Origin: a virus
Taxonomy: Duplodnaviria; Heunggongvirae; Uroviricota; Caudoviricetes
DNA length: 64,000 nucleotides
Reading direction: 5' to 3' (one strand)
IMG/VR virus record: IMGVR_UViG_3300016667_000484
Location: 1-64,000 of that record
The position numbers and the translations under genes are program-made. The notes under the pieces were generated by a model, which did no database searches, had not been told where the DNA came from, and saw only the letters and a list, made by a program, of their open reading frames with translations. Below, one piece after another: positions 36,136-56,249 of this stretch (position 1 is its first letter; every line of letters starts with the position of its first letter).

Positions 36136-36211
36136 TGGTGCTGCAGGAGGGAATCGAACCCACGACCTGATGCTTACAAGGCAACTGCTCTACCGACTGA
36201 GCTACTACAGC
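36136..36211 (-). tRNA. tRNA-Thr(TGT)
   Basis: Hand-folded cloverleaf. Acceptor GCUGUAG/CUGCAGC, D-arm GCUC..GAGC, anticodon loop CUUGUAA, T-loop UUCGAUU, CCA encoded. Confidence 0.75.
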
Positions 36212-36217
36212 GTTATT

Positions 36218-36290
36218 TGGAGCGGGTAGCCGGAATCGAACCGGTCTCCTACAGCTTGGAAGGCTGCCTGGCTACCATAGCCTTACCCGC
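36218..36290 (-). tRNA. tRNA-Gly(TCC)
   Basis: Acceptor GCGGGUA/UACCCGC, anticodon loop CUUCCAA. It resembles T4 tRNA-Gly. TATAAATA at 36299-36306 lies just 5' of it. Confidence 0.8.
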
Positions 36291-36298
36291 GTTATTCT

Positions 36299-36306
36299 TA
36301 TTTATA
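36299..36306 (-). promoter_or_regulatory. T4-type late promoter TATAAATA immediately 5' of the tRNA-Gly/tRNA-Thr pair
   Basis: tatttata on the plus strand reads TATAAATA on the minus strand, 9 nt upstream of the tRNA-Gly 5' end. Confidence 0.5.
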
Positions 36307-36553
36307 CTTGATGCTTCCACTCAACACCATCGTAGTCAAGGTTTTTTGCGATGGTGGAATAGAATTGCCGTTGAGCGTCTTGGAACGCATCCTTGTCAGT
36401 ACTGAGTACAGTTACATTGATGGGTTCAAGGGAATTCTTTTTGTAGGGCATAGCGATAAACGTTCGCTTCTTCACACCCTTCTTCATCAGAAGTTTGCCA
36501 TAACCATATGGCTTGTTGTTCAAGATGTCTTCGAGTTCTTCACGGTTCAGCAT
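36302..36553 (-). CDS. hypothetical protein
   Basis: 83-aa ORF. Confidence 0.5.
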   Translation of the reverse strand: MLNREELEDILNNKPYGYGKLLMKKGVKKRTFIAMPYKKNSLEPINVTVLSTDKDAFQDAQRQFYSTIAKNLDYDGVEWKHQV

Positions 36554-36771
36554 TAGTACGATCCGATACCTTTTCGAGCTGGTTTCATTTCATTCCAAGA
36601 GAGATAGCTCTCGATGATCTTGCCTTTATAGTCGAAAGCATGCTTGACATCGAAGTTGTTCATCGCGTGTTCGACGATCGCCTTCTTTGTGATCTTGCCA
36701 TACTCAGCTTTGATCACTTCATCATCAACTTCAACCGAGATGGTAACAGTGACGTGGACGGCGTGCTTCAT
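36553..36771 (-). CDS. hypothetical protein
   Basis: 72-aa ORF. A TTGACA-type promoter lies upstream at about 36810-36830. Confidence 0.5.
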   Translation of the reverse strand: MKHAVHVTVTISVEVDDEVIKAEYGKITKKAIVEHAMNNFDVKHAFDYKGKIIESYLSWNEMKPARKGIGSY

Positions 36772-37241
36772 CTATGCTCTCTTCTATTGATAGAATCAGC
36801 TTACACCATATCCACGTCAATGTCAACTAGTTTATGCGCAGTTGGTTACTACATTTCCAACGACAGTGTTACGACCTGTCAGCAAGGATAGCCGGCATGT
36901 TCAGTTATCCTATACCCATCGGACGGTACATGCAAGTCCCGATGGAGCTCGTTGTTTCCTACGCAACGTCTGGTACATTTTAGATAGTAGATTTAGATTT
37001 ACTATGGTAGTCTTATATTACAGTAGTCTATTATAAGGTGACTTCTCATCTGTCGCGAAGTTTTCTCGTGGGACCAGTAGACCACGGTCTTTTCCAGCGG
37101 TGATCTAGCAGTGCCTGGACATCACAATTCTAAGTCGTACGCCAGATGCTAGATCACTTGAGATCTTTTTACCTTCGACCGAGACGATCGGTCTGACTAA
37201 TACAATTAGTCAACCCTAACCGATACGAAACCTTTATCGTA

Positions 37242-37613
37242 TCATACATCCGGGCCAGATGTATTCTTTAGCCACTTGTCAAACTGTTCGTCTGGAAGTG
37301 GTTTGTGCACAGTCATACTTGGGTAGACTCGAACTTCGGTCATTCCGAGAGCAGCTTTCGCTTTGATCACTGCTGATTGCTGGTCACTATCATTCTCATC
37401 GAATGGATTCTTCTCTGGCGCAGTGAATGGCTTTCCATTCAAGTAAGCGTACGCGATGAGAAGTCCACGTACTTCTGAGCGTTCTTTTACTAACGCGTAC
37501 TGCGCTTCAGCTTGAGGACCATAATGGTCAACATGCTTTCGTGCTTGACGCTTGCTGTCTTTGATGTCAATCGCCAGAGTCTTAAGTCGTGCTTTGATTT
37601 CTTGCTTGTTCAT
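37242..37613 (-). CDS. hypothetical protein
   Basis: RBS AAGGA before MNKQEIK. Confidence 0.5.
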   Translation of the reverse strand: MNKQEIKARLKTLAIDIKDSKRQARKHVDHYGPQAEAQYALVKERSEVRGLLIAYAYLNGKPFTAPEKNPFDENDSDQQSAVIKAKAALGMTEVRVYPSMTVHKPLPDEQFDKWLKNTSGPDV

Positions 37614-37956
37614 GATGCATTCCTTCTGAATTTTGTTTTCTTGTGAGATTAGTCGTAGTAGGTATCGGTACAACTGTCTCATGAAGGTGCATCCCGAATG
37701 GTGGCTAACCCATTCTCGATCAAAAGCGAACACTTACGAATCTTGATCGCCCCTTTCGTTGCAGGGTTATCAGGAGTCTCTTTCGTGCTCCAGCCTTTGA
37801 GGCATTCCACATGGTTCACGTAGAATGTTTGGCCTTTTGCTTTAAGAACCCACATAGGGATCGTAGCGTCTTCAAGGTGTTTCTTGTTGAAGTGAAATAT
37901 AACTTCAGTATTTTCGATAATCTAGGACATTTATATGCTCCATGTTGAAGTGTAAG

Positions 37957-37964
37957 TATAAATA
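37957..37964 (+). promoter_or_regulatory. TATAAATA late promoter upstream of homing-endonuclease gene 37981
   Basis: Exact octamer, 16 nt before the ATG. Confidence 0.55.
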
Positions 37965-37980
37965 TATGCAGGAGGTAACA

Positions 37981-38583
37981 ATGACAACACCATACACATA
38001 TCTAGTAGGATGGTCAAACTATGACCTTTGGTATTATGGCGTAAGATTCGCCAAAGGCTGTAACCCTAATGATTTATGGGTTACATATTTCACATCATCT
38101 AATCGGGTCAAGCACACCCGAGAACAATACGGTGAACCAGATGTTGTTGAGATTAGACGCGTTTTTAAGAATCAAGATTCTGCTAGAGTTTGGGAACACA
38201 AAGTGTTAAAAAGAATGAAAGTCATCAAAAATAGCAAATGGTTGAACCAAACAGATAATGTATCAATTGGGATGGATGTTCAAACTAGAATCAAAATCTC
38301 AAACACTAAGAAAGGCCGACCTAACAGCGAAAGCCATAATAGAAAGATAGGCGACTTTCATCGTGGAAAGATTGAATCCGCTGAAACAAGGCTCAAAAAG
38401 TCGTTGTCAAGAACAGGTAAAACCCATTCAGACGAAACTTTAAGAAAGCTATCAGAAAACTCCGGAAGAGCAAAACCTGTTGAAGTCAATGGTGTTATGT
38501 ATAGAAGCCTTAAACATGCTGCACAAACGCTATTCCCAGACTCTCCAGATATTCGAAAGGTTAAACGTTTACTCGCTACCTGA
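37981..38583 (+). CDS. homing endonuclease-like protein (GIY-YIG/Seg-like)
   Basis: YTYLVGWSNYDLWYYGVRFAKG N-terminus and NUMOD-like repeats. TATAAATA at 37957-37964. RBS aggagg. Confidence 0.6.
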   Translation: MTTPYTYLVGWSNYDLWYYGVRFAKGCNPNDLWVTYFTSSNRVKHTREQYGEPDVVEIRRVFKNQDSARVWEHKVLKRMKVIKNSKWLNQTDNVSIGMDVQTRIKISNTKKGRPNSESHNRKIGDFHRGKIESAETRLKKSLSRTGKTHSDETLRKLSENSGRAKPVEVNGVMYRSLKHAAQTLFPDSPDIRKVKRLLAT

Positions 38584-38606: not shown

Positions 38607-38682
38607 TGGTTGCCCCGGCGGGAATCGAACCCGCAACCGAGTGGTTTAGAAGCACCTGCTCCACCAATTGAGCTACGGGGCC
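38607..38682 (-). tRNA. tRNA with anticodon CTA (amber-suppressor-like)
   Basis: Acceptor, D-arm (GCUC/GAGC) and T-arm (GCGGG UUCGAUU CCCGC) are good. The anticodon loop UUCUAAA is fixed by the flanking arms. G1.A72 and C31.C39 are mismatched. Confidence 0.55.
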
Positions 38683-39251
38683 AAGCTGGTTCTCACACTT
38701 TGAACCGAATGTCGTCTAGAACTGAGTGACCCGCCTTTCGGCTACTATACATAGGTATCTAGATCGAACAATAGTAAGGTGACAGGATTTATCCTCGATT
38801 CCTCCGACACTGAGATGACTGGATGGTCGTCGTCCTTGTCGAGGCATTACCTGTCTCTATGATCATGGTTTTTACACCAAGATTTGTTGCAGTACCCATC
38901 CGAAACTGGTAAGCGGCGGTTCTATTGCGAAAGTCAGTTGCAGGAACTTACCAAGAAAGATTACGCCGAACAGTAGTTGAAGTTAACAGAATGTTTGCCT
39001 ACTCTCTATTTTATGTGGGAGAATCGAAAGCCACGTGCGTTTACCAATTAAACAGTATGTTTTGATTGATTGCTGTACACATTCTAAATTCTGGTGTCGG
39101 CTTCAGGTTATCACATTAACTTAGCCCAATCTTCACGCGAAGGGTACCGACATATTGGTGGACCTGCACGGTTACGATCCGTGTCCTCTACATTGCAAGT
39201 GTAGAATGCTCCCATTATCACCACAGGCCCGTGTTGAGGTTACCCTGACCA

Positions 39252-39328
39252 GTCCATTTTAAGTTTGGACAAACTTGGTGTCACCACCGGGAGTACCAGT
39301 CCATTTTGAGTTTGGACAAACTTGGGGC
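39252..39328. repeat. two direct copies of a 31-bp unit containing the palindrome AAGTTTGGACAAACTT
   Basis: cagtccatttt(a/g)agtttggacaaacttgg occurs at 39252-39282 and 39298-39328. Confidence 0.6.
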
Positions 39329-39445
39329 TGAAAAGCCACTCCACCACCTGCTTTTACGAAAACAGGAAAATTCGTCAGGATCGTTTTTGTCCGCTAAGAC
39401 ATGCATTGATTTAGCGTTTTGGTTTGCTGAACCGATCCTATATTT

Positions 39446-39585: not shown

Positions 39586-39668
39586 TTGGCATACGTGGGA
39601 GGAATCGAACCCCTGGCGGACGGTTTTGGAGGCCGTTGTTAGCACCAGCTAACTATACGCTCCACGTA
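39586..39668 (-). tRNA. tRNA-Trp(CCA) with atypical D-arm
   Basis: Perfect acceptor AUACGUG/CACGUAU. Anticodon arm like E. coli tRNA-Trp (CUCCAAAACCG). 83 nt, because the D region forms an unusual 6-bp hairpin GUUAGC-UGGU-GCUAAC. Confidence 0.55.
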
Positions 39669-40284: not shown

Positions 40285-40373
40285 AATTTACACCGTTATG
40301 TGGAACCAAAGGAACCTCCGATTTACTGGTTATGAGCCAGTCGAGATGCCTCTTCTCTACCCCGCAAAAATTT

Positions 40374-40449
40374 TGGCTCCCAGTGTAGGGCTCGAACCTA
40401 CGACCCGCGCATTAACAGTGCGCTGCTCTACCAACTGAGCTAACGAGGA
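40374..40449 (-). tRNA. tRNA-Asn(GTT)
   Basis: Anticodon stem GCGCA/UGCGC, loop CUGUUAA, T-loop UUCGAGC. Confidence 0.75.
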
Positions 40450-40558: not shown

Positions 40559-40900
40559 ACTAAACACAAGCCGCCCTGATTTCGCGTGTATTTTACACCG
40601 TTTGACCATCATTCGCACGTCTTGCTAGATGCGGCGCCCACCGTAGGTAAGTCTACTTTCAAGGCCAATTACGACAAGTGTTTAGTTAGAAACAGAGGTT
40701 GGAGTTTCCGCTTTCTTTAAGACCGCTACGGTGTGCGCTAAACACCAACTCTGTTCTATTTATACTCATCGGGTCTTACGGGTTTGTCCCACCCCGATCA
40801 TAATCTATCAATCAAGATTTACTGGTTCATCACCTACTTGATCTTCTCACCTTATAGAGACAATCTAAACCAACTCGATCTAGATGTCAACTACTTTTTT

Positions 40901-40995
40901 CTGTTTTCTTTTATACACCGAGGAATCGAACCTCCTTGCCTTGCCGTTGCGGGGCCTGTGCTTTCCAGTACACCAAGTGTATAAAAGAAAACAGA
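40901..40995 (-). pseudogene. degenerate tRNA-like element enclosed by a perfect 20-bp inverted repeat
   Basis: ttctgttttcttttatacac ... gtgtataaaagaaaacagaa flank a T-arm-like GGAGGUUCGAUUCCUC and a CCGCAAC loop. There is no proper anticodon stem. Confidence 0.45.
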
Positions 40996-41241
40996 AGCGG
41001 CCAGGGACTCGAGTCGACGAGTTTCTCTACCGGATGCACATGTTAGCTCATTTGTGCTTGCAGAGCTTTTGCTCTGGATGGTCGCCAGTCCATCTTTCCT
41101 TCAAGTAGCGCATTAGCGATATGCTATGGCCACCAGCTTCTGTTACCTGATTTTCAAAGAGCAAGGAAGCTCAGGTTGGTTACCGTCTGCGTTCCTTATA
41201 TGTACAATCTATACTGTTCTACAGGAATGTCAACCAGTATT

Positions 41242-41842: not shown

Positions 41843-41930
41843 TGGCGGATGGAGGAGGAATCGAACCCCATAGGTTTCCCTATGAACCGCTTTCCAGGCG
41901 GCCTCCCGCACCAGCTAGGAGACTCCATCC
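41843..41930 (-). tRNA. tRNA-Ser(GGA)
   Basis: Type II with long variable arm. Anticodon loop CUGGAAA, G73. Confidence 0.75.
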
Positions 41931-43601: not shown

Positions 43602-43691
43602 TGGCGGAGACGGTGAGATTCGAACTCACGGAACGCTTTCACGTTCGGCCGCTTTCAAGGCGGCAGCGATAGACCACTCTGCCACATCTCC
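43602..43691 (-). tRNA. tRNA-Ser(TGA)
   Basis: Type II. Anticodon stem GCCGC/GCGGC, loop CUUGAAA, G73. Confidence 0.75.
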
Positions 43692-44063: not shown

Positions 44064-44140
44064 TGGTTGCGGTGGGCAGGAATCGAACCTGCGTAATCGG
44101 CTTATGAGACCGTGCTGGAACCACCTCCAGTCTACCCCGC
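44064..44140 (-). tRNA. tRNA with anticodon CAT (Met or Ile2); acceptor pairing imperfect
   Basis: D-arm CUGG/CCAG, anticodon loop CUCAUAA, T-arm GCAGG UUCGAUU CCUGC. The acceptor has 2 mismatches. The shared motif ATTTTTGCGGGGTA lies at its 5' end. Confidence 0.5.
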
Positions 44141-44264: not shown

Positions 44265-44375
44265 ACTAGTGGCGCAGGAGGGAATCGAACCCTACTTGAT
44301 GTATCCGTCAAAACAGAATTTCTGCGATTCTGTTTTCAGCTACATCAAGTGGACTACCACAAGCAATTACGCCAC
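44265..44375 (-). pseudogene. tRNA-like element interrupted by a long AU-rich hairpin
   Basis: T-arm-like AGGGUUCGAUUCCCU and a 3' CCA, but the body contains the nested hairpin CUUGAUGUA[GCUGAAAACAGAAU-CGCAGAA-AUUCUGUUUUGACGGA]UACAUCAAG. Confidence 0.4.
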
Positions 44376-44430
44376 CCAATGTTTCCCCACCAGGTTTTGA
44401 TGTATGTGAAAACAGAATTTCTTCTGTTTC
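44295..44430. repeat. recurring AAACAGAA-loop-TTCTGTTT hairpins
   Basis: aaaacagaatttctgcgattctgtttt at 44301-44329 and gaaaacagaatttcttctgtttc at 44408-44430. Related copies at 54807-54820, 54898-54922, 40901-40910 and 40985-40995. Confidence 0.5.
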
Positions 44431-44526: not shown

Positions 44527-44590
44527 TTTGCCGCGGATTTGAACCGCACACTTTTCTTGGAAGGAAAATGCTCTACCGTTGAGCTATGCA
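44527..44590 (-). pseudogene. tRNA-like pseudogene (intact D-arm, anticodon arm with UCC, T-arm; acceptor stem disrupted)
   Basis: GCUC AACGGUA GAGC / UUUUC CUUCCAA GAAAA / UGCGG UUCAAAU CCGCG. No pairing acceptor and no CCA. Flanked by the repeated motif atgcaatttt(t/g)ttgctg. Confidence 0.4.
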
Positions 44591-44617
44591 ATTTTTTGCT
44601 GAAACGATCCTATAATC

Positions 44618-44995: not shown

Positions 44996-45301
44996 GTGAT
45001 TCTCCGTTGTTCATGATGTATATTCAGGTTGGTTGGTTACTTGTTTGTTGCCTTACCATTTGGCTATCTACGCAAGAAGCGTGGAATCGGATTCGAACCG
45101 ATAATACACAAAGTGTGTAAGTTTGCTGAACCCAACCTATATTCTTTCTGGATCAACTTTTTTGCTACGTGTGCATCTGTTACACCAATGCCCCATAGTG
45201 AAATTGGTGGGGCACCTAGGATTTGCACCTAGACCACGATCTCCGAATGATATGCAATTTTGTTGCTGTAATGATCCAATATTCGTTAGGCTATGCCGCC
45301 G

Positions 45302-46744
45302 TTAGACGGCATAGCGATCCTTAAGCAGAGTCTTCAGCATTACGTTGTAAGGCGTGAACTCTTCGAGGTCGTTCGCAAGGACCGACTTCATGATGGCAGG
45401 CGAGAAGCCCGAGACCAAGCAGACACCCTTGTCGTCGAAACGAACCGGAGTGTTGCTGTCGCCGTAAGGAGACAGGTTCCAGAAGACGATCTTCGGCACA
45501 GCGTAGCCGGCCTTAGCGTACTTCCGAGCAATCATCTCCTGAGCGGAGTCATCGTAGCGAACGCAGGAGTTGAACTGCATGTCCGAGAGGATCAGCAGCA
45601 TCTCCGGCATGTCCTCTTGCGAGACCTTGCCCTTGATTGCGATGTCGAGCAACATGTCGAACGCTGCATGCAGGTTCGTGCTACCCGCGACGATCTCAGG
45701 GATCGACTTCAGACGCTGAGTCAGCGAGCCCTTAGGCGTAACCAACTTCGGAGTCGAGTCGAAGATCATCATGAGGTCCTTGAAGTTGGACGTGTTCTTT
45801 TCAGAAACGTACAGACCCAGACCCAGTGCGACCTCGATAGGCTGAGGAGCACCGTTACCACCACGGTTCATACCGTAACGGTTGAAAGGCATGTAGCCCA
45901 TCGAACCAGAGGTGTCGACGATCGGGAAGATCTTCGCGTTACCGACGAAGTTAGGCAGAGCCTTCCACTGCTCGTCAGCAACAGCCGAGTTACCATTCGT
46001 CACCGAACGGATAACGTCGTACGGATAGACCGCACCAGCGTTGATCTTGACCTTCACGGTACGCTCAGCCTCAGGCTTCTGCAGCTCACGAATGTAAGCC
46101 GAGTAAGCTTCCTTAGCGTTGCGGCCGAAAGCCTTCTGATAGCGAGCCGATGCAACCGAAGGAACATGCGAGAAGTTAATCTCGTTCCAGTTCTTGGCAC
46201 ACATCTGGGTCTCGACGACCGAGGTCAGTTCGACAACCAGCTTACGATAAGACTTTGGCGACAGGCCGAGGAACTTGGTCAGTTCGACTGCGACTGGACC
46301 CTTACGAGGCATCCACTTCGCGCAGAGGCCGTTCTTGTCTTCGATGAGAGCCTTGCGGATCATCTCGAAAGCAGCCTTGCGGTTGAAGTGCTCGGTGTAG
46401 GCGAACAGGTCGTCCCAACGGCCAAGCTCAGGAATGCGAGCCATCAGCTTACCAGCGGTAGCAGGGTTCAACGTTTCCAGCTTCGACAGAAGGTTGCGGA
46501 ATTGAGCACGCTCACCGGCACCTTCGCGAATGTCGCGAGTCCACAGAAGAGCACGCAGTGCGTGCTCTTCGTTTTCGGCCAGAGCCGAGAGGAATTGATC
46601 GGTCATATCCTTACCACGGTAAGAACCGACCTTGCCGAAGAAGTCCAAGACTGCCGATGCCGAAGTAGCACGGGCCTTCATACCATTCGCGGTACGAGCA
46701 GGAGCTTCATTCTTGTAGTTGAGGGCTGCGTTTGCAAAAGACAT
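45302..46744 (-). CDS. vWA-domain protein (DUF2828 / Ro60-TROVE-like architecture)
   Basis: MIDAS motif IVDTSGSMGYMP in the C-terminal half and a long alpha-rich N-terminal half. 480 aa. tRNA-like motifs lie in its 5' leader. Confidence 0.7.
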   Translation of the reverse strand: MSFANAALNYKNEAPARTANGMKARATSASAVLDFFGKVGSYRGKDMTDQFLSALAENEEHALRALLWTRDIREGAGERAQFRNLLSKLETLNPATAGKLMARIPELGRWDDLFAYTEHFNRKAAFEMIRKALIEDKNGLCAKWMPRKGPVAVELTKFLGLSPKSYRKLVVELTSVVETQMCAKNWNEINFSHVPSVASARYQKAFGRNAKEAYSAYIRELQKPEAERTVKVKINAGAVYPYDVIRSVTNGNSAVADEQWKALPNFVGNAKIFPIVDTSGSMGYMPFNRYGMNRGGNGAPQPIEVALGLGLYVSEKNTSNFKDLMMIFDSTPKLVTPKGSLTQRLKSIPEIVAGSTNLHAAFDMLLDIAIKGKVSQEDMPEMLLILSDMQFNSCVRYDDSAQEMIARKYAKAGYAVPKIVFWNLSPYGDSNTPVRFDDKGVCLVSGFSPAIMKSVLANDLEEFTPYNVMLKTLLKDRYAV

Positions 46745-48585: not shown

Positions 48586-48669
48586 TGGTGTCCTCGGGGA
48601 GATTCGAACTCCCACGGCTTGCGCCACTAGCACCTCAAGCTAGCGTGTCTACCATTCCACCACGAGGAC
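48586..48669 (-). tRNA. tRNA-Leu(GAG), canonical type II
   Basis: Long variable arm. Anticodon stem CUAGC/GCUAG, loop UUGAGGU, A73. Confidence 0.75.
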
Positions 48670-49533: not shown

Positions 49534-49551
49534 CGATCAATGTTCTCTATG

Positions 49552-49626: not shown

Positions 49627-49703
49627 TGGTGTCCCTGAGAGGATTCGAACCTCCAACTTCGTGTTACTCAAACACGAGGCTCTACCAATTGGCCTACAGG
49701 GAC
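49627..49703 (-). tRNA. class-I tRNA with leucine anticodon GAG
   Basis: Same UAGGCCAAUUGGUAGAG D region as the 42135 and 42500 tRNAs. Anticodon stem CGUGU/ACACG, loop UUGAGUA, A73. Confidence 0.6.
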
Positions 49704-50688: not shown

Positions 50689-50690
50689 AT

Positions 50691-50767
50691 TGGTCCCGCG
50701 TACGAGTTTCGAACTCGTTTCTCCGGCTTGAGAGGCCGGCGACCATCGCCAAGTAGTCCTACGCGAG
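50691..50767 (-). tRNA. tRNA-Glu(CTC)
   Basis: Anticodon stem CCGGC/GCCGG, loop CUCUCAA, T-loop UUCGAAA. Confidence 0.7.
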
Positions 50768-50768
50768 T

Positions 50769-50844
50769 TGGTGCTTCTGTGAGGAGTCGAACCTCATCAT
50801 CGACGGTTATCGGCCGTCTGCCTTTCCGATAGACAGTCAGAAGC
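50769..50844 (-). tRNA. tRNA-Ile(GAT) variant with C32-C33
   Basis: Standard 76-nt numbering fits. Stem GACGG/CCGUC. The loop CCGAUAA has C where the near-universal U33 should be. Confidence 0.55.
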
Positions 50845-50849
50845 GTTAT

Positions 50850-50926
50850 TGGTCCCCCAGAAGGGTTTCGAACCCTCTTCTCCGACTTGAAAGGCCGGCG
50901 ACCATCGCCAAGTAGTCCTCTGGGAG
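50850..50926 (-). tRNA. tRNA-Glu(TTC)
   Basis: Paralogue of the 50691 tRNA, with loop CUUUCAA. Confidence 0.7.
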
Positions 50927-50986
50927 TGATGAATTTCAGGGGCATGATTGCTTTGAAATGCCGAAGCCCAGCGGCATTGGGGTTAT

Positions 50987-51070
50987 TGGTGGGTTACCTT
51001 GGAATCGAACCAAGCGTGCTTTTCAGCGACGGATTTACAGTCCGCTGCCTCACCTTGAGGCGTGTAACCC
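50987..51070 (-). tRNA. tRNA-Tyr(GTA)
   Basis: Type II. Anticodon stem GCGGA/UCCGU, loop CUGUAAA, A73. Confidence 0.75.
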
Positions 51071-51075
51071 AATCT

Positions 51076-51150
51076 TGGTGGTGCTGGGTGGAATTGAACC
51101 ACCGACATAGGGTTTATGAGACCCCTGTTCTACCCCTGAACTACAGCACC
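51076..51150 (-). tRNA. tRNA-Met/Ile2(CAT)
   Basis: D-arm GUUC AGGGGUA GAAC, loop CUCAUAA, G1-C72 paired so elongator-type. Confidence 0.7.
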
Positions 51151-51156: not shown

Positions 51157-51247
51157 TGGTGGGAGAAGGGTCGAGTTGAACGCCTTGCCTTTGCAGGGAA
51201 TGGTTTACAGCCACCCGATAGGACCGCCTATCCTTATTGCATCTCCC
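51157..51247 (-). tRNA. tRNA-Tyr(GTA)-like, 91 nt, atypical
   Basis: Loop CUGUAAA and long variable arm, but the D region forms a 6-bp hairpin (GGAUAGG-CGGU-CCUAUC) and the T-stem is imperfect. Confidence 0.4.
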
Positions 51248-51248: not shown

Positions 51249-51322
51249 TGGTGTTCCTACAAGGTAACGATCCTTGGTCTCTCGCTTATCAGGCGAGTGC
51301 TCTACCTTTGAGCTATAGGAAC
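51249..51322 (-). tRNA. tRNA-Ile(GAT)
   Basis: D-arm GCUC AAAGGUA GAGC, anticodon stem CUCGC/GCGAG, loop CUGAUAA, T-loop variant AUCGUUA. Confidence 0.7.
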
Positions 51323-51392
51323 ATGTTAATCTACTTCTACAACAGTCGAAGACGAATGTCAACAACTATTTTCATACTGCTTGGGAGACACG

Positions 51393-51425
51393 TACGGGAA
51401 TCGAACCCGTCGTTCTAAGAAGAGT
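51393..51425 (-). pseudogene. partial duplicate of the tRNA-Cys 3' end (T-arm plus acceptor 3' strand)
   Basis: gggagacacgtacgggaatcgaacccgtcgtt almost repeats gggagacacacacgggaatcgaacccgtttgc at 51427-51458. Confidence 0.6.
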
Positions 51426-51429
51426 AGGG

Positions 51430-51510
51430 AGACACACACGGGAATCGAACCCGTTTGCTTGCGCAGCTTTAGTTTTGCAGACTAACCCCTTACCGGTCGG
51501 GCAGTGTGTC
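51430..51510 (-). tRNA. tRNA-Cys(GCA)
   Basis: Anticodon stem UUAGU/ACUAA, loop CUGCAAA, U73. The acceptor can extend to 10 bp. The variable region is unusually long (about 13 nt). Confidence 0.6.
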
Positions 51511-52116
51511 TCCGTACTTTTCTTTCCACAATTCAATTTCAGTTAGAAGTTGTTCTAGACTAATTGAAGAATTGCGGTTCTTCCTTGCATTATCAGTTTG
51601 TAATACTAGTTGGCAATTTGCCGGATGAGAAATGATTTTAGGATCAACCATAAGTGTAAACCCATCCTTCACCGATAGTCGATGATCACGTGATATACCA
51701 TTCAAGTTATTCCCACGATTTGAAGCAGAATACCAACCATTAGATTCCACTAAGCAAAGATCAAAGTAGTCCGGATAATCATACACATTAAAGATAAACC
51801 TACAGTCTAGCTTATATGCTTGATACGCTTCCATGCCGATTCTACGAAATTCGTCAAAACATTCTTTACAGCAAAACTTCTGTGATTTTGTCTTGAACGT
51901 GGAACCACAGTTAAGGCAATCAACCACATTGTATTCATGTTTTCTGTTGGCATTGCCGATATGCCTATTCGCAATCAATACCGAAGATGAATTTTTCGCA
52001 GAAAGCGATTTCTTTAACCTATCTTCTGGTGACCATGATCTTGAATTTGCACATTTACGCGAGCAATACACTCCGGACTTATCATGGATTGTATTGCACT
52101 TCGGACAAGTTTTCAT
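51490..52116 (-). CDS. HNH endonuclease with N-terminal Zn-finger pairs
   Basis: CPKCN / CSRKC / CLNCG / CCKEC zinc-finger pairs, then ISRDHRLSVKDG...HPANCQLVLQTDNARKN HNH motif. TATAAATA at 52139-52146. Confidence 0.65.
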   Translation of the reverse strand: MKTCPKCNTIHDKSGVYCSRKCANSRSWSPEDRLKKSLSAKNSSSVLIANRHIGNANRKHEYNVVDCLNCGSTFKTKSQKFCCKECFDEFRRIGMEAYQAYKLDCRFIFNVYDYPDYFDLCLVESNGWYSASNRGNNLNGISRDHRLSVKDGFTLMVDPKIISHPANCQLVLQTDNARKNRNSSISLEQLLTEIELWKEKYGDTLPDR

Positions 52117-52161: not shown

Positions 52162-52237
52162 TGGTGGGTGGTGTTGGTTACGATCCAACCTCTCATGCTT
52201 TTCAGGCACGCGCTTTCACCAGATTAGCTTACCACCC
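52162..52237 (-). tRNA. tRNA-Phe(GAA)
   Basis: Anticodon stem CGUGC/GCAUG, loop CUGAAAA, T-loop variant AUCGUAA, A73. Confidence 0.75.
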
Positions 52238-52304
52238 AAATAAGTGCTAGCCACGGGTTTGCCTGCTAGCAGTAGTAAGAGTCTCTTACCTTCTTACCAC
52301 AATG

Positions 52305-52375
52305 TCAGGATGGCGGGAATCGAACCCACGCCGGAAGCTTCCAAGGCCGCCACGCTACCACTACGCTACATCCTG
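52305..52375 (-). tRNA. tRNA-like gene, anticodon ambiguous (TGG/Pro-like)
   Basis: Good acceptor CAGGAUG/CAUCCUG and T-arm. The anticodon stem is weak. 71 nt. Confidence 0.35.
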
Positions 52376-52454
52376 TTTATGTGTTTGGCTCTACCCCAGT
52401 GCGTGAGGGTGACTTAGCTGCTATTCGCCGTAGCAGTACCGTGAATGTGTTTTG

Positions 52455-52534
52455 CTCGGTCGGCTGGGATCGAACCAGCGCCATATTGGGCTTCCGATTA
52501 ACAGTCGGGCGCATTACCACTCTGCCACGACCGA
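52455..52534 (-). tRNA. tRNA-Asn(GTT), second copy, with long variable region
   Basis: Loop CUGUUAA. The acceptor can extend to 10 bp. The variable region is about 13 nt. Confidence 0.5.
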
Positions 52535-52634: not shown

Positions 52635-52709
52635 TGGCTGGGAAGGGTGGATTCGAACCACCGGCCTCCTGATTCAAAGTCAGTTATTCTACCGCTGAAC
52701 TACTTCCCA
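52635..52709 (-). tRNA. tRNA-Gln(TTG)
   Basis: U1-A72, G73, loop CUUUGAA. Confidence 0.75.
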
Positions 52710-52716: not shown

Positions 52717-52791
52717 TGGTCCTGGCGGTTGGTTACGATCCAACTCTACTGAGTCCACAGCTCAGTGTGCTACCATTATCACTACACCAGG
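52717..52791 (-). tRNA. tRNA-His(GTG) with A73 and no templated G-1
   Basis: Anticodon stem CUGAG/CUCAG, loop CUGUGGA. 3' end ...CGCCAGG-A-CCA. The genomic nucleotide at -1 is U, not G. Confidence 0.7.
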
Positions 52792-54807: not shown

Positions 54808-55056
54808 CTCTGTTTTCAACTGCACAATCACGAATCGAACGTGTTTTCTTGTCACTGACTATATAGTCCACTACCCAGTAGCTACAATGGGTTATTGTGC
54901 ATGTGAAAACAGAATCGCTTCTGTTTCCAGTTCCATCATCGGGCATCCCCTAGGAACAAAGCTTAAATTTTCAATGAGCTGGGATGATTGATACGATCTC
55001 TTCGATCCCGAGTTTTTCTTCTATACTAGATCGACACGAATGTCAACCGTTATTTT

Positions 55057-55132
55057 TGGAGGGCTGCGAAGGACTCGAACCTTCATACACCGATTTGCGG
55101 TCGGCCCCGTAACCAGTTCCGAACAGCAGCCC
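55057..55132 (-). tRNA. tRNA-Cys(GCA) variant with C32-C33
   Basis: Acceptor GGGCUGC/GCAGCCC, U73, stem GCCGA/UCGGU, loop CCGCAAA. Confidence 0.55.
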
Positions 55133-55408
55133 AAATGGAAAACCCCTCCGAGACTTTCGTCTGGAGGGGTTGGTTTTCTCTAACCATGTACACCTGGCGT
55201 TAGCCGACGTACCCCCTCATGTTCATAATATTAAGCTGTTCACCGCGCATAATAAAGCGATAGCAAGGTAGTACCTGCTTATGCTTTACGACTGATGCGC
55301 TAGTGGGTTTCATTGAAGGAGAATCCTTGGTTAGTTTGTTCTGTTAAGACTATTTATACACTGGTTTCGGAAGATGTCAACAAAAAAGTGCGCTTTTCCG
55401 AAATTTTT

Positions 55409-55852
55409 TCAGGCAGAGAATGCCTTCAGTTGCCATGCCATCTTCTCGTGCCAGTCGATACGATCCTCGAGGTAGTTCACGAGACCATACTGCGAGTACT
55501 TCTCTGCGAGAGTGTGAGCGGCGTTGAGTTCTTCGAGAAGAGTGTCGTTGTCTGCAGCCAGACGAGCGATCATCGAGAGAGCATCAGGGATGTTGAGCTC
55601 ATCTTGAATGTGAGTCAGAGACATGAAGCGAGACAGCGAAGCTGGAGCAAATGCACCAAGTGCGCGGATGTGCTCAGCGATGTCGTCGATCGATCCGTGA
55701 ACTGCGTCGTAGTAATCACCGATGAAGTCATGGTACTGTGCGAAGTTTGGACCAGTGACGTTCCAGTGGAATCCGTGGGCTTTAAGATATAGGGTGAATG
55801 CCGACGCCAGTACGACTTTCATCTGATCAACAAGTTGTTCCATTATACTCAT
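55409..55852 (-). CDS. dps: Dps (ferritin-like DNA-binding protein)
   Basis: FTLYLKAHGFHWNVTGPNF is a Dps signature. TATAAATA at 55881-55888. Confidence 0.85.
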   Translation of the reverse strand: MSIMEQLVDQMKVVLASAFTLYLKAHGFHWNVTGPNFAQYHDFIGDYYDAVHGSIDDIAEHIRALGAFAPASLSRFMSLTHIQDELNIPDALSMIARLAADNDTLLEELNAAHTLAEKYSQYGLVNYLEDRIDWHEKMAWQLKAFSA

Positions 55853-55880
55853 CCTTATGGTTGTTGGTTGATTGTACGAG

Positions 55881-55888
55881 TATTTATA
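55881..55888 (-). promoter_or_regulatory. TATAAATA late promoter upstream of dps
   Basis: Exact octamer on the minus strand between tRNA-Met and dps. Confidence 0.5.
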
Positions 55889-55891
55889 TGT

Positions 55892-55967
55892 TGGTGCTCC
55901 CGGAGGGACTCGAACCCACGATCAAGGCGTTATGAGCGCCCGGCTTTAGCCGCTAAGCTACAGGAGC
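55892..55967 (-). tRNA. tRNA-Met/Ile2(CAT)
   Basis: D-arm GCUU AGCGGCUA AAGC, anticodon stem GGGCG/CGCCU, loop CUCAUAA. Confidence 0.7.
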
Positions 55968-56091
55968 ATACGTCAATATCCTGGTTGGTAGAAGTGCTTG
56001 GAGTTGAACCAAGTCGAGAACGCTGATCTGGCGCTAGAAGGTTTATAAGGCCTCCCTGTGTACCGACACCCACTTCCACAAAGCAGGATAT

Positions 56092-56168
56092 TGGTGCCCC
56101 CGGTCGGACTCGAACCGACACTGTAGAGATTTTAAGTCTCCTGCCTCCTGCCGTTGGGCTACGAGGGC
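56092..56168 (-). tRNA. class-I tRNA with leucine anticodon TAA
   Basis: Acceptor GCCCUCG/CGGGGGC, A73, anticodon stem GGAGA/UCUCU, loop CUUAAAA, short variable loop. Confidence 0.6.
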
Positions 56169-56173
56169 ATAAA

Positions 56174-56249
56174 TGGCGCGCCCGGAAGGAATCGAACCCT
56201 CATCGTAGAGTTTAGAAGACTCTTGCCTTATCCATTAGACCACGGACGC
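56174..56249 (-). tRNA. tRNA-Arg(TCT)
   Basis: Anticodon stem AGAGU/ACUCU, loop CUUCUAA, G73. Confidence 0.7.

What the first reader, a model, noticed from the sequence alone, without database searches (positions are those of the whole stretch)
36136..56249. Exceptionally large tRNA island: about 42 intact-looking tRNAs covering all 20 amino acids, all on the minus strand
Hand-folding finds Ala, Arg x3 (one of them an aberrant ACG-like), Asn x2, Asp, Cys x2, Gln x2, Glu x2, Gly x2, His, Ile x2, Leu x6, Lys x2, Met/Ile2 x3, Phe, Pro x1-2, Ser x4, Thr x2, Trp, Tyr x2, Val x2 and one CTA tRNA, plus about 6 fragments or pseudogenes. Homing endonuclease genes, small ORFs and structured non-coding DNA lie between them. 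T4 itself carries 8 tRNAs. A near-complete set suggests strong translational autonomy or a host whose tRNA pool is attacked during infection. Late promoters sit directly 5' of some tRNAs (36299).
Basis: seen in the sequence. Interest (0 to 1): 0.6.

Follow-up and report, generated by a model that had tools for sequence, protein, structure and literature searches.

The report
Phage tRNA island, 42 genes
A virus of bacteria carries a 20-kb block of 42 working-looking tRNA genes, nearly a full decoding set; such blocks are already known from other large phages, so it is a large, well-preserved example and not a new kind of thing.

Summary
ARAGORN finds exactly 42 tRNA genes, all on the minus strand, all within 36057-56249, and none elsewhere in the 64 kb. 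Rfam confirms 36-38 of them.

They carry 34 different anticodons, covering 19 amino acids plus one amber-suppressor (CUA) tRNA. Trp and the CGN codons of Arg are served only by aberrant tRNA-like genes. About nine further fragments or tRNA-like RNAs lie between the genes.

The genes are under selection. Against a syntenic metagenomic relative with 45 tRNAs, stem changes are 32 compensatory, 9 pair-keeping and 2 pair-breaking.

The island sits in an early-type region of a phage with T4-like features. It holds 13 GTTGACA early-promoter motifs, 11 TATAAATA late-type motifs, GIY-YIG homing endonucleases, and a Ro60-like protein with Y-RNA-like tRNA mimics. Two RNA ligases and a Thg1-like enzyme lie nearby.

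Best reading: a self-sufficient tRNA supply that keeps phage translation running when host tRNAs are scarce, degraded or cleaved. This is inferred, not shown.

Arrays of 40-56 tRNAs are already published, so this is a new member of a known kind. The most unusual detail is that five of the six Leu tRNAs lack the long variable arm, a form widespread in phages.

The parts
56174..56249 (-). tRNA-Arg(TCT), encodes CCA
   Evidence: ARAGORN 119.8; Rfam 58.5 bits
56092..56168 (-). tRNA-Leu(TAA), type-I shape (5-nt variable loop), A73, CCA
   Evidence: ARAGORN 119.3; Rfam 56.1; 100% identical in L081
55986..56077 (-). 92-nt tRNA(UAU) with long variable arm whose loop is CAGAUCA; A73, CCA
   Evidence: ARAGORN 98.2 at lowered threshold; family in 8 loci with invariant CAGAU.A loop
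55892..55967 (-). tRNA(CAT); C4-G69 and C5-G68 suggest an Ile2 (lysidine) type, judged from memory of TilS rules
   Evidence: ARAGORN 120.1; Rfam 61.3
55409..55852 (-). ORF, DNA-binding protein family phrog_3636, behind a TATAAATA motif
   Evidence: E 1.8e-30
55057..55132 (-). tRNA-Cys(GCA), U73, CCA
   Evidence: ARAGORN 107.2; Rfam 28.3, just under the cut-off of 29; 92% identical in L081
52962..53037 (-). tRNA-Lys(TTT)
   Evidence: 57.4 bits
52798..52873 (-). tRNA-Lys(CTT)
   Evidence: 49.7 bits
52717..52791 (-). tRNA-His(GTG): T at position -1, A73, no encoded G-1; A54/U58 T-loop
   Evidence: Rfam 46.5
52635..52709 (-). tRNA-Gln(TTG)
   Evidence: 69.2 bits
52553..52628 (-). tRNA-Gln(CTG)
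   Evidence: 54.6 bits
52454..52534 (-). tRNA-Asn(GTT) with 13-nt variable region, G73, no CCA
   Evidence: Rfam 58.9
52304..52375 (-). tRNA-Pro(TGG), no encoded CCA
   Evidence: 58.5 bits
52162..52237 (-). tRNA-Phe(GAA), A54/U58 T-loop
   Evidence: 52.2 bits
51490..52116 (-). ORF, weak HNH-endonuclease-like N-terminal part plus phrog_23051
51427..51511 (-). 85-nt tRNA-Cys(GCA): 8-bp acceptor stem, 5-bp T stem, long variable arm, no CCA
   Evidence: ARAGORN 111.2; Rfam 51.3; long-arm Cys relatives in L001-L003 and L016
51383..51410 (-). duplicated 3' fragment of the long Cys tRNA
   Evidence: sequence read
51249..51322 (-). tRNA-Ile(GAT), A54/U58 T-loop
   Evidence: 66.6 bits; 100% identical in L081
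51161..51238 (-). degenerate Tyr(GTA)-like pseudogene
   Evidence: ARAGORN 88.7 at low threshold only
51076..51150 (-). tRNA-Met(CAT)
   Evidence: 70.7 bits
50987..51070 (-). tRNA-Tyr(GTA), long variable arm
   Evidence: ARAGORN 102.4; Rfam tRNA-Sec model 39.5
50850..50926 (-). tRNA-Glu(TTC); 3-nt connector, or alternatively an 8/4 fold
   Evidence: 41.1 bits
50769..50844 (-). tRNA-Ile(GAT) with C33; not found by Rfam
   Evidence: ARAGORN 103.4; 97% identical in L081
50691..50767 (-). tRNA-Glu(CTC); 3-nt connector, or alternatively an 8/4 fold
   Evidence: 42.2 bits
50223..50296 (-). tRNA-Val(GAC)
   Evidence: 53.8 bits
50144..50217 (-). tRNA-Thr(GGT)
   Evidence: 59.6 bits
49712..49790 (-). 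aberrant Arg(ACG)-like RNA: normal acceptor stem, T arm and CCA, but the anticodon hairpin (CUACGAA loop) is nested inside a D-like stem
   Evidence: Rfam 34.2; fold; 100% identical in L081 while the flanks differ
49627..49703 (-). tRNA-Leu(GAG), type-I shape
   Evidence: 54.1 bits
49551..49625 (-). tRNA-Leu(CAG), type-I shape, no encoded CCA
   Evidence: 42.1 bits
48824..49495 (-). GIY-YIG (SegE-like) homing endonuclease gene behind a TATAAATA motif
   Evidence: Pfam SegE_GIY-YIG and NUMOD3; phrog_314 E 1.5e-49
48586..48669 (-). tRNA-Leu(GAG), the only Leu with a long (12-nt) variable region
   Evidence: 56.4 bits
46853..47389 (-). ORF with a weak homing-endonuclease match
   Evidence: phrog_314 E 1.6e-4
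45302..46744 (-). Ro60/Rsr-like RNA-binding protein (DUF2828 + DUF7788, phrog_850)
   Evidence: AlphaFold2 model; Foldseek top hit 2NVO D. radiodurans Ro, E 6.6e-7, full length
45141..45300 (-). Y-RNA-like RNA 1: basal stem, T arm, closed acceptor-like hairpin, D arm
   Evidence: RNAalifold on 11 loci, 15 of 24 pairs compensatory; nhmmer homologues next to the Ro-like gene
45039..45116 (-). Y-RNA-like RNA 2 (YrlA-like order of domains); absent from L081
   Evidence: Rfam YrlA 23.4 bits, below the cut-off of 69
44527..44591 (-). Gly(TCC)-like tRNA with truncated acceptor stem
   Evidence: Rfam 40.2; sequence
44265..44379 (-). tRNA-like RNA with a very long extended arm
   Evidence: fold z-score -4.6; Rfam tRNA-Sec model 22.9
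44068..44140 (-). degenerate tRNA(CAT)
   Evidence: Rfam 30.3; ARAGORN 96.8 at lowered threshold
43602..43691 (-). tRNA-Ser(TGA)
   Evidence: 47.8 bits
43365..43440 (-). tRNA-Ala(TGC), G3-U70
   Evidence: 59.9 bits
43286..43359 (-). tRNA-Gly(GCC)
   Evidence: 55.5 bits
42664..42737 (-). tRNA-Asp(GTC)
   Evidence: 55.2 bits
42582..42656 (-). tRNA-Val(TAC)
   Evidence: 62.5 bits
42500..42576 (-). tRNA-Leu(TAG), type-I shape
   Evidence: 57.9 bits
42135..42211 (-). tRNA-Leu(CAA), type-I shape
   Evidence: 53.3 bits
42039..42128 (-). tRNA-Ser(GCT)
   Evidence: 57.8 bits
41950..42037 (-). tRNA-Ser(CGA)
   Evidence: ARAGORN 108.5; Rfam tRNA-Sec model 40.3
41843..41930 (-). tRNA-Ser(GGA) with 8-bp acceptor stem and 4-bp T stem (8/4), long variable arm, G73
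   Evidence: ARAGORN fold; Rfam tRNA-Sec model 45.5; type described in PMC5389517
40895..41000 (-). tRNA-like cap (called 'Cys' by ARAGORN, 40910-40984) on a stem of about 20 bp; no CCA
   Evidence: fold z-score -3.7
40374..40449 (-). tRNA-Asn(GTT)
   Evidence: 60.9 bits
40298..40366 (-). 5' fragment of an initiator-like tRNA(CAT)
   Evidence: Rfam 23.9; sequence
39587..39662 (-). aberrant tRNA-Trp(CCA)
   Evidence: ARAGORN 94.1 at lowered threshold only; Rfam tRNA-Sec model 31.6; not orthologous to the intact Trp of L081 and L085
39446..39522 (-). tRNA-Pro(TGG)
   Evidence: 66.2 bits
39156..39230 (-). tRNA-Ala(TGC), G3-U70, A54/U58 T-loop
   Evidence: 41.9 bits
38607..38682 (-). tRNA(CTA), amber-suppressor anticodon, G1.A72 mismatch, A73, CCA
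   Evidence: ARAGORN 114.3; Rfam 54.7; CTA tRNAs in 17 related sequences
37942..38583 (+). GIY-YIG/NUMOD3-like homing endonuclease gene on the opposite strand
   Evidence: phrog_314 E 7e-20
36218..36290 (-). tRNA-Gly(TCC); TATAAATA 8 nt upstream
   Evidence: 37.1 bits
36136..36211 (-). tRNA-Thr(TGT)
   Evidence: 69.1 bits
   Evidence: 62.1 bits
17813..18571 (-). Thg1-like tRNA-His guanylyltransferase (outside the island)
   Evidence: Pfam Thg1 105 bits against a cut-off of 29.2; phrog_4717
6836..7960 (-). T4 Rnl1-type RNA ligase (outside the island)
3767..4912 (-). second RNA ligase (RNA_ligase domain plus OB fold; outside the island)

Best explanation
The region is the tRNA gene island of a large lytic phage with T4-like features. 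It was assembled from a metagenome. The host is unknown, and an alphaproteobacterium is my best guess.

The island encodes a nearly self-sufficient decoding set. There are 42 predicted tRNAs with 34 anticodons, and 37 of them have the CCA end already encoded. They are packed in sub-clusters with 1-7-nt spacers. Several host-type early promoters (GTTGACA-N17-TAnnnT) and T4-type late motifs (TATAAATA) on the same strand would transcribe them through the whole infection. The transcripts would then be cut into tRNAs by host RNase P and 3' processing enzymes.

Its most likely job is to keep phage protein synthesis running when host tRNAs are limiting. That could happen because the phage shuts off and degrades host nucleic acids, or because host defence nucleases cut tRNAs.

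Neighbouring genes fit a combined strategy of replacing, repairing and quality-controlling tRNAs. These are two RNA ligases, a Thg1-like 5'-end enzyme, and a Ro60-like protein with Y-RNA-like tRNA mimics.

Shown here: the genes, their selection, their promoter motifs and their neighbours. Inferred: expression, charging, and the selective reason for the island.
For: - **Genes:** 42 tRNAs on one strand, none elsewhere in the window; Rfam agrees for 36-38.
- **Selection:** against the syntenic relative L081 (45 tRNAs, same order), 21 gap-free orthologous pairs show 32 compensatory, 9 pair-keeping and only 2 pair-breaking stem changes.
- **Codon coverage:** strict wobble rules leave only CCY, GCY, CGG and AUA uncovered, about 6% of codons. 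CCY and GCY are normally read by modified U34, and AUA may be read by a CAT (Ile2-like) or the UAU tRNA.
- **Promoter motifs:** TATAAATA occurs 16 times against 0.8 expected, 11 of them on the minus strand in or at the island. GTTGACA occurs 34 times on the minus strand and once on the plus strand, 13 of them in the island.
- **Neighbours:** Rnl1-type and second RNA ligase, Thg1-like, Endonuclease_NS; Ro60-like fold; Y-RNA-like RNA with covariation.
- **Lineage trait:** 67 of 80 viral loci that carry the Ro-like gene have tRNAs within 10 kb, every one co-oriented with it.
- **Literature:** phage tRNAs rescue infection from tRNA-cleaving defences (PMC10264068, PMC11464382, PMC11555353).
Against: - No expression, processing or charging data exist.
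- The host is unknown, so neither host codon usage nor host defence content could be compared.
- The anticodon loops of the Lys tRNAs look ordinary, so there is no visible nuclease-escape signature.
- Trp and Arg(CGN) are served only by aberrant molecules in this genome, so the set is not fully autonomous.
- Five genes lack an encoded CCA, and several neighbours are fragments.
- No polynucleotide kinase/phosphatase partner for the RNA ligases was recognised.
Confidence: 0.55

Rival explanations
1. Codon-usage compensation only. The island tops up tRNAs for codons that the phage uses more than its host does. This would raise the translation rate of (late) phage genes without any loss of host tRNAs.
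For: This is the classical explanation for phage tRNAs (reviewed in PMC10264068). The duplicated anticodons GAG (Leu) and GAT (Ile) match the commonest Leu and Ile codons of the window's genes: CTC+CTT make up 54% of Leu codons and ATC+ATT 89% of Ile codons. Late-type promoter motifs lie in front of some tRNAs.
Against: A set with 34 anticodons for 19-20 amino acids covers common and rare codons alike, which is more than a top-up needs. Cys is duplicated although it is rare. The repair and quality-control genes nearby are not explained. The host is unknown, so the key comparison could not be made.
Confidence: 0.2
2. Host-range buffer. A complete tRNA set lets the phage infect hosts with different tRNA pools and GC content.
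For: The same island architecture is kept in relatives from several metagenomes. Individual tRNAs at fixed positions have been swapped for versions less than 78% identical with the same anticodon, as if they were being re-tuned.
Against: There are no host data at all. tRNA-His with A73 and no G-1 suggests tuning to one host type and not to many.
Confidence: 0.1
3. Selfish or neutral accumulation. tRNA genes pile up as cargo and targets of homing endonucleases and recombination in a plastic genome region, with little benefit to the phage.
For: GIY-YIG and HNH-like endonuclease genes lie between the tRNAs. In T4, SegB sits in the tRNA cluster and drives its inheritance (PMC2330249). About nine fragments or aberrant copies are present, one of them a duplicated 3' end. 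The island is 20.2 kb here against 15.4 kb in L081, mainly because of inserted ORFs.
Against: There are 32 compensatory against 2 disruptive stem changes, and the gene order is conserved in L081, so purifying selection acts on most tRNAs. The type-I Leu family shows 19 of 21 covarying pairs across many phages.
Confidence: 0.07
4. The suppressor tRNA marks a phage that reads TAG as a sense codon (stop-codon recoding), and the island serves that alternative code.
For: A well-formed tRNA(CUA) is present and is kept in relatives.
Against: Treating TAG as sense does not lengthen the window's long ORFs more than treating TAA as sense does. TAG ends 13 of 74 predicted genes. CTA tRNAs are common in phage tRNA clusters that use the standard code; ARAGORN labels them 'Pyl' in 44 of 55 mycobacteriophages (PMC6409571).
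Confidence: 0.05

Closest known systems
Phage T4 tRNA region (8 tRNAs with the segB homing endonuclease)
   Same: tRNA genes clustered on one strand in a non-essential early region. A GIY-YIG Seg-type endonuclease lies among them (PMC2330249). The same TATAAATA late-promoter consensus and an Rnl1-type RNA ligase are present.
   Different: Five times more tRNAs. A near-complete anticodon set, where T4's eight cover only a few. A Ro60-like/Y-RNA module and Thg1 are present here. T4 core genes were not seen in the window, so family membership was not tested.
KVP40-like vibriophages, Cronobacter phage S13 and other tRNA-rich T4-like phages
   Same: They carry the closest cultured homologues of the Ro-like protein (44-46% identity, annotated 'RNA-binding protein'). 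From memory, they are T4-like with roughly 25-30 tRNAs.
   Different: No nucleotide similarity beyond single tRNAs. This island is larger, and its RNA ligase and Thg1 are closest to proteins of alphaproteobacterial phages.
tRNA gene clusters of alphaproteobacterial phages with 8/4 tRNAs (Mukai et al. 2017, PMC5389517)
   Same: An 8/4 tRNA-Ser (41843-41930) with long variable arm and G73. A tRNA-His without G-1 and with A73. A long-arm UAU tRNA that recalls allo-tRNA(UAU).
   Different: The His tRNA here folds 7/5, not 8/4. The UAU tRNA folds 7/5 with A73. That paper's text, as searched, does not mention type-I Leu tRNAs.
Record phage tRNA sets: Xanthomonas phage XacN1 (56 tRNAs, all 20 amino acids) and cluster-C mycobacteriophages (more than 30 tRNAs, Ro homologue)
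   Same: Dozens of tRNAs for all or nearly all amino acids (PMC5852040, PMC6409571). Mycobacteriophages also pair tRNA arrays with Ro60 and YrlA-like RNAs (PMC4201824).
   Different: Different phage groups and hosts. In XacN1 the tRNAs sit in terminal repeats. Here the array is a single island in an early gene region.
Anti-defence phage tRNAs (T5 tRNAs against PARIS and retrons; mycobacteriophage tRNAs against anticodon nucleases)
   Same: A phage-borne supply of tRNAs that could replace cleaved host tRNAs (PMC11464382, PMC11555353, PMC10264068).
   Different: No defence system, cleavage target or escape mutation could be identified here. The link is by analogy only.
Bacterial and phage Ro60 with YrlA Y RNA (RYPER-type particles)
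   Same: The predicted ring-plus-vWA fold matches D. radiodurans Rsr. An adjacent RNA has a basal stem and a permuted tRNA-like domain supported by covariation. This is as described in PMC4201824 and, for Thermus phage phiLo, in PMC12135203.
   Different: The protein hits DUF2828/DUF7788, not the TROVE family, and has no sequence-level match in the PDB. The RNA scores 23.4 bits against a YrlA cut-off of 69.

Membership tests
Viral tRNA gene cluster (Morgado & Vicente 2019 criterion) | At least 15 tRNA genes at a density of at least 2 tRNA per kb | tested here: met
   42 genes in 20,193 bp, or 2.08 per kb; criterion from PMC6409571
Canonical tRNA (Rfam RF00005) | Score at or above the gathering cut-off of 29 bits | tested here: met
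   Met by 34 of the 42 in the standard run and 36 in the sensitive run. Not met by Ser-GGA, Ser-CGA and Tyr (best match is the tRNA-Sec model, below its cut-off), Cys 55057 (28.3), Ile 50769 and 'Cys' 40910.
Functional tRNA genes under selection | Stem changes between relatives keep base pairing | tested here: met
   32 compensatory, 9 pair-keeping, 2 pair-breaking changes against L081
Complete decoding set (all 20 amino acids) | At least one well-formed tRNA for each amino acid | tested here: inconclusive
   19 amino acids at the default threshold. The Trp tRNA is aberrant. Arg CGN codons are covered only by an aberrant ACG-like RNA.
T4-like phage (Straboviridae) | T4-type late promoter consensus TATAAATA, over-represented and on the coding strand | tested here: met
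   16 matches against 0.8 expected
T4-like phage (Straboviridae) | T4 core replication and structural genes (for example major capsid, terminase, DNA polymerase, gp55) | not tested
   None recognised among the window proteins scanned. The window appears to hold only early and auxiliary genes.
(8/4) tRNA-Ser of Mukai et al. | 8-bp acceptor stem, 4-bp T stem, long variable arm, G73, Ser anticodon | tested here: met
   ARAGORN fold of 41843-41930. This is a single predicted structure, and no covariation test of the 8th pair was made.
Ro60 / Rsr | HEAT-repeat ring plus vWA domain fold | tested here: met
   AlphaFold2 model with pLDDT 73. Foldseek's only full-length hit is 2NVO, E 6.6e-7, TM 0.47.
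Ro60 / Rsr | Sequence membership in the TROVE family | tested here: not met
   Pfam gives DUF2828 + DUF7788 only. No PDB sequence hit, even with a profile.
YrlA Y RNA (Rfam RF02553) | Score at or above the gathering cut-off of 69 bits | tested here: not met
   23.4 bits for 45039-45116
YrlA Y RNA (Rfam RF02553) | Encoded next to a Ro gene; basal stem plus T arm, closed acceptor-like hairpin and D arm | tested here: met
   45141-45300: 24 predicted pairs, 15 with compensatory changes in 11 loci
Stop-codon-recoded phage (TAG read as sense) | In-frame TAG in genes; ORFs lengthen when TAG is read through | tested here: not met
   Only this window was tested, and late genes lie elsewhere.
Anti-defence tRNA (escape from an anticodon nuclease) | The phage tRNA differs from the host isoacceptor at the nuclease's recognition positions | not testable with these tools
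   Host and its defence systems are unknown
Type-I tRNA-Leu | Leu anticodon, A73, 4-5-nt variable loop, cloverleaf supported by covariation | tested here: met
   Five window genes. For 30 distinct sequences, 19 of 21 pairs are compensatory and A73 is invariant. Leucylation was not tested.

The most novel reading that the evidence does not exclude
The island is more than a copy of a bacterial tRNA set. It belongs to a phage-borne tRNA repertoire whose architecture has been altered.

Solid observations:
- Five of six Leu tRNAs here lack the long variable arm that almost all bacterial tRNA-Leu carry.
- Across the related loci, 37 of 53 distinct Leu tRNAs lack it too.
- Full-length relatives occur in 125 cultured phage genomes from several phyla.
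- Some Cys, Asn and Ile(UAU) tRNAs have instead gained a long arm.

The novel reading is that these are functional acceptors. Their changed shape would make them poor substrates for a host or phage nuclease, or another factor, that recognises normal tRNA shape. Together with the Ro60-like/Y-RNA module, Thg1 and the RNA ligases, they would form a phage tRNA replacement and maintenance system.

I found no paper on type-I tRNA-Leu in phages in the searchable library.
Probability: 0.2. Interest if true: 0.7.

Novelty: new member of a known kind. Interest (0 to 1): 0.4.

Why it matters
This is a clean, complete and selection-tested example of a near-full tRNA set in a phage with T4-like features from an uncultured lineage. 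Close relatives are available for comparison.

Such islands bear on a current question: do phages carry tRNAs to match codon usage, or to survive the loss and cleavage of host tRNAs?

The locus puts replacement (tRNAs), repair (RNA ligases, Thg1-like) and RNA quality control (Ro60-like with Y-RNA-like RNAs) side by side. That makes it a good candidate for experiments.

The type-I tRNA-Leu family deserves its own follow-up. One published study found that E. coli LeuRS does not charge a bacterial type-I tRNA-Leu (PMC6614811).

Tried and rejected
- **Nucleotide search of the whole island** against 50,697 phage records: only single-tRNA matches, no relative.
- **Exact look-up of the Ro-like protein:** not on record. 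Relatives were found by similarity instead.
- **TAG recoding:** rejected for this window.
- **Sigma-70 and terminator consensus scan:** counts no higher than in shuffles. The informative signals were the phage's own motifs.
- **Sequence-level link of the Ro-like protein to solved structures:** none, with a single sequence or a profile.
- **Schlafen idea:** bacterial Schlafen nucleases might target long-arm tRNAs as human SLFN11 does. [quoted passage not shown]
- **8/4 fold for the two Glu tRNAs:** cannot be told apart from a 7/5 fold with a 3-nt connector.
- **Host identification:** the best protein hits point to alphaproteobacterial phages but at no more than 42% identity. A cyanophage shares a 91% identical tRNA-Leu. 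The host is left open.
- **More tRNA-related enzymes:** a search for a CCA-adding enzyme, polynucleotide kinase or peptidyl-tRNA hydrolase found none.

Full report
**1. The observation**

ARAGORN at default settings finds 42 tRNA genes in the 64-kb window. All are on the minus strand and all lie between 36057 and 56249.

Rfam's tRNA model at its curated cut-off finds 36 sites. Thirty-four of them are among the 42, and two are extra degenerate copies at 44068-44140 and 44527-44591. A more sensitive run adds Ala 39156 and Glu-CTC 50691. Three long-arm tRNAs (Ser-GGA, Ser-CGA, Tyr) match the tRNA-Sec model best, just under its cut-off. Cys 55057 scores 28.3 against a cut-off of 29. Ile 50769 and the 'Cys' at 40910 are ARAGORN-only calls.

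The density is 2.08 tRNA per kb. Nothing comparable is found in the remaining 44 kb, so chance is excluded.

Thirty-seven of the 42 genes encode their CCA end. Many are separated by only 1-7 nt.

**2. Content**

The set has 34 different anticodons for 19 amino acids, plus a CUA (amber-suppressor) tRNA.

- **Trp.** The Trp-CCA gene appears only at a lowered threshold. It is structurally odd and is not orthologous to the intact Trp tRNA that sits at the same place in two relatives.
- **Arg CGN.** The only reader of CGN codons is an aberrant molecule at 49712-49790. It has a normal acceptor stem, T arm and CCA. Its perfect Arg-ACG anticodon hairpin, however, is nested inside a D-like stem. It is 100% identical in relative L081 while the flanks differ.
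- **Codon coverage.** Under strict wobble rules only CCY, GCY, CGG and AUA lack a reader, about 6% of the window's codons. CCY and GCY are usually read by modified U34. AUA could be read by the CAT tRNA at 55892, whose C4-G69 and C5-G68 pairs recall tRNA-Ile2 (from memory). It could also be read by the UAU tRNA at 55986-56077.
  - an initiator-like 5' half at 40298-40366;
  - a Tyr-like pseudogene at 51161-51238;
  - a duplicated 3' end of the long Cys tRNA at 51383-51410;
  - a tRNA-like cap on a roughly 20-bp stem at 40895-41000;
  - a tRNA-like RNA with a very long arm at 44265-44379.

**3. Are the tRNAs functional?**

The Ro-like protein inside the island led to close relatives in public metagenomes. 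Locus L081 is about 80-90% identical at the nucleotide level. It carries 45 tRNAs in the same order within 15.4 kb.

In 21 orthologous tRNA pairs that align without gaps, the stem changes are 32 compensatory, 9 one-sided but pair-keeping, and only 2 pair-breaking. That is the signature of purifying selection on the cloverleaf.

At several fixed positions the anticodon is kept but the tRNA is less than 78% identical. This suggests cassette-like replacement.

**4. Setting**

The window has no close nucleotide relative among 50,697 deposited phage genomes.

- **Genes recognised in the window:** ribonucleotide reductase, thymidylate synthase, DNA ligase, NAD-salvage enzymes, a non-specific nuclease, an Rnl1-type and a second RNA ligase, and a Thg1-like tRNA-His guanylyltransferase.
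- **Late-type motif:** the T4 late-promoter consensus TATAAATA occurs 16 times against 0.8 expected. Eleven copies are on the minus strand in or at the island. One lies 8 nt before tRNA-Gly 36290 and one 7 nt before tRNA-Arg 56249.
- **Early-type motif:** a second motif, GTTGACA followed 17 nt later by a TATAGAT-like box, occurs 34 times on the minus strand and once on the plus strand. Thirteen copies are in the island.
- **Expression:** the tRNAs are therefore probably transcribed both early and late. This is inferred from motifs only.
- **Homing endonucleases:** GIY-YIG genes lie at 48824-49495 and 37942-38583, with weaker candidates at 46853-47389 and 51490-52116. T4 has segB inside its tRNA cluster in the same way (PMC2330249).
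- **Host hints:**
  - The best hits of the RNA ligase and of Thg1 are to phages of Rhodobacterales, Caulobacter and Rhizobium, at no more than 42% identity.
  - The tRNA-His has T at position -1 and A73. This is the form described for a group of alphaproteobacteria and their phages (PMC5389517).
  - A cyanophage shares a 91% identical tRNA-Leu.
  - The host stays open.

**5. A Ro60-like protein with Y-RNA-like RNAs inside the island**

The 480-residue protein at 45302-46744 hits only DUF2828/DUF7788 and phrog_850 'RNA-binding protein'. It has no sequence match in the PDB.

Its AlphaFold2 model (pLDDT 73) has one full-length structural match: Deinococcus radiodurans Ro/Rsr (2NVO, E 6.6e-7). All other matches cover only the vWA domain.

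Directly downstream, 45141-45300 folds into a basal stem, a T arm, a closed acceptor-like hairpin whose loop begins ACCA, and a D arm. In an alignment of 11 loci, 15 of the 24 predicted pairs show compensatory changes. This is the YrlA type of tRNA mimic (PMC4201824).

A second copy at 45039-45116 gives a weak Rfam YrlA hit: 23.4 bits against a cut-off of 69. It is missing from L081.

In 67 of 80 viral loci that encode this protein there are tRNAs within 10 kb. Every one of those tRNAs is on the gene's strand.

The 710 cultured phages that have the protein include KVP40-like, mycobacterial, Listeria and Staphylococcus phages. From memory, these are groups known for many tRNAs.

Phage Ro60 with Y RNAs is known. 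In Thermus phage phiLo it binds host PNPase (PMC12135203).

**6. Unusual tRNA shapes**

- **Leu.** Five of the six Leu tRNAs are 75-77 nt with a 5-nt variable loop.
  - In the window plus 85 related loci there are 37 such distinct sequences against 16 with a long arm. All 39 Ser and all 15 Tyr tRNAs keep the long arm.
  - Thirty of the short Leu sequences give a cloverleaf with compensatory changes in 19 of 21 pairs, and A73 is invariant.
  - Full-length relatives annotated tRNA-Leu occur in 125 cultured phage records: Streptomyces 75, then Pseudomonas, Synechococcus, Acinetobacter, Rhizobium and others.
  - In E. coli, A73 and the D/T-loop tertiary contacts define Leu identity, not the long arm (PMC9976931).
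  - Even so, a 2019 study states that almost all bacterial tRNA-Leu are type II and that E. coli LeuRS did not charge the Streptomyces type-I species (PMC6614811).
  - I found no paper on this form in phages.
- **Ser-GGA** has the 8/4 acceptor/T-stem arrangement described for phage tRNA clusters (PMC5389517).
- **Long-arm tRNA(UAU).** It recurs in 8 loci with an invariant CAGAU.A loop in its extra arm. Between the window and L081 it shows a compensatory change in the T stem.
- **Long-arm Cys and Asn** tRNAs also occur.
- **T-loop swap.** Twenty of 561 distinct tRNAs have the T-loop pair swapped to A54/U58, four of them in this window.

**7. The suppressor tRNA**

The CUA tRNA is well formed, and equivalents occur in 17 related sequences. 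The window shows no sign that TAG is read as sense. ORFs do not lengthen more with TAG read through than with TAA, and 13 of 74 genes end in TAG. Genes outside the window could not be checked.

ARAGORN's 'Pyl' label is only its name for the CUA anticodon. The same label is reported for 44 of 55 mycobacteriophage clusters (PMC6409571).

**8. Interpretation and novelty**

The best-supported reading is a selection-maintained, nearly self-sufficient tRNA supply. It would be expressed through the whole infection and would buffer phage translation against shortage, decay or cleavage of host tRNAs. The repair and quality-control genes nearby fit this reading. So do the published rescue experiments (PMC10264068, PMC11464382, PMC11555353).

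The reading remains an inference. There are no expression data, and the host is unknown. Codon compensation, host-range buffering and endonuclease-driven accumulation are the rivals. The last is weakened by the covariation data.

The count is high for a T4-like phage. A 2019 survey found 1-43 tRNAs per viral genome and at most 36 in myoviruses (PMC6409571). Larger sets are nevertheless published, for example 56 in XacN1 (PMC5852040). tRNA clusters of alphaproteobacterial phages with odd tRNAs have also been described (PMC5389517).

I therefore rate the finding as a new member of a known kind, of moderate interest. The widespread type-I tRNA-Leu family and the link between the Ro-like gene and tRNA islands are the parts most worth following up.

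Noticed in passing
window 42135-42211, 42500-42576, 49551-49625, 49627-49703, 56092-56168 (-); also L014, L015, L033, L067, L071, L074, L081 and others: Five of six Leu tRNAs lack the long variable arm (type-I shape). The form is common in phages: 37 short against 16 long distinct Leu tRNAs in the related loci, strong covariation, and full-length relatives in 125 cultured phage records. I found no published description for phages.
   Followed up: partly
window 45302-46744 (-), 45141-45300 (-), 45039-45116 (-); 80 IMG/VR loci L001-L080: A Ro60-like protein (DUF2828/DUF7788) with one or two Y-RNA-like tRNA mimics sits inside the island. In 67 of 80 viral loci the gene is flanked by tRNAs, and every one of them is on its strand.
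   Followed up: yes
window 55986-56077 (-); L014 4149-4240, L021 320-411, L026 4967-5057, L063 20105-20199, L065 42-136, L076 15548-15641, L081 about 2790-2880: A conserved 91-95-nt tRNA has anticodon UAU and an extra arm whose loop is invariant CAGAU.A. That loop contains GAU, the normal Ile anticodon. Whether the arm acts as an identity or modification signal is unknown.
   Followed up: partly
window 49712-49790 (-); L081 about 7160-7240: An aberrant Arg(ACG)-like RNA has a normal acceptor stem, T arm and CCA, but its anticodon hairpin is nested in a D-like stem. It is 100% identical in L081 although the flanking sequence differs. It may be a decoy or another non-decoding RNA.
   Followed up: partly
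window 17813-18571 (-) and 52717-52791 (-): The phage encodes a Thg1-like enzyme. Its tRNA-His has T at position -1 and A73, so G-1 is not templated. Either G-1 is added after transcription, or the host's HisRS does not need it (alphaproteobacterial type).
   Followed up: partly
window 38607-38682 (-): The amber-suppressor tRNA (CUA) here has a G1.A72 mismatch, whereas relatives L081 and L085 have G1-C72. There is no TAG recoding in this window.
   Followed up: partly
window 50689-50992 (-): The block Glu(TTC)-Ile(GAT, with C33)-Glu(CTC) is 97% identical to L081, against about 80-85% elsewhere. Both Glu tRNAs can be drawn with an 8-bp acceptor stem and a 4-bp T stem.
   Followed up: partly
window 39156-39230, 51249-51322, 52162-52237, 52717-52791 (-): Four tRNAs share the T-loop AUCGUAA, in which the usual T54/A58 pair is swapped to A54/U58. 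Across all loci 20 of 561 distinct tRNAs show the swap.
   Followed up: partly
window 51427-51511 (-) and 52454-52534 (-): A Cys tRNA has an 8-bp acceptor stem and a long variable arm (tRNA-Sec-like shape, GCA anticodon). An Asn tRNA has a 13-nt variable region. Neither encodes CCA. Long-arm Cys relatives occur in L001-L003 and L016.
   Followed up: partly
whole window, minus strand (for example 57744, 55047, 53353, 48417, 23025, 8014): A phage-specific early-promoter-like motif, (A-rich)GTTGACA-N17-TATAGAT/TTATATCT, occurs 34 times on the minus strand and once on the plus strand. This suggests that nearly the whole window is one leftward early transcription region.
   Followed up: partly
window 39285-39374 (-): Weak Rfam match to the wcaG RNA motif (34.8 bits against a cut-off of 42). 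From memory, this motif is known from marine phage and cyanobacterial sequences.
   Followed up: no
L015 7735-8200, L024 6122-6534: Some more distant loci with the Ro-like gene also carry a tmRNA gene next to a CUA tRNA.
   Followed up: no
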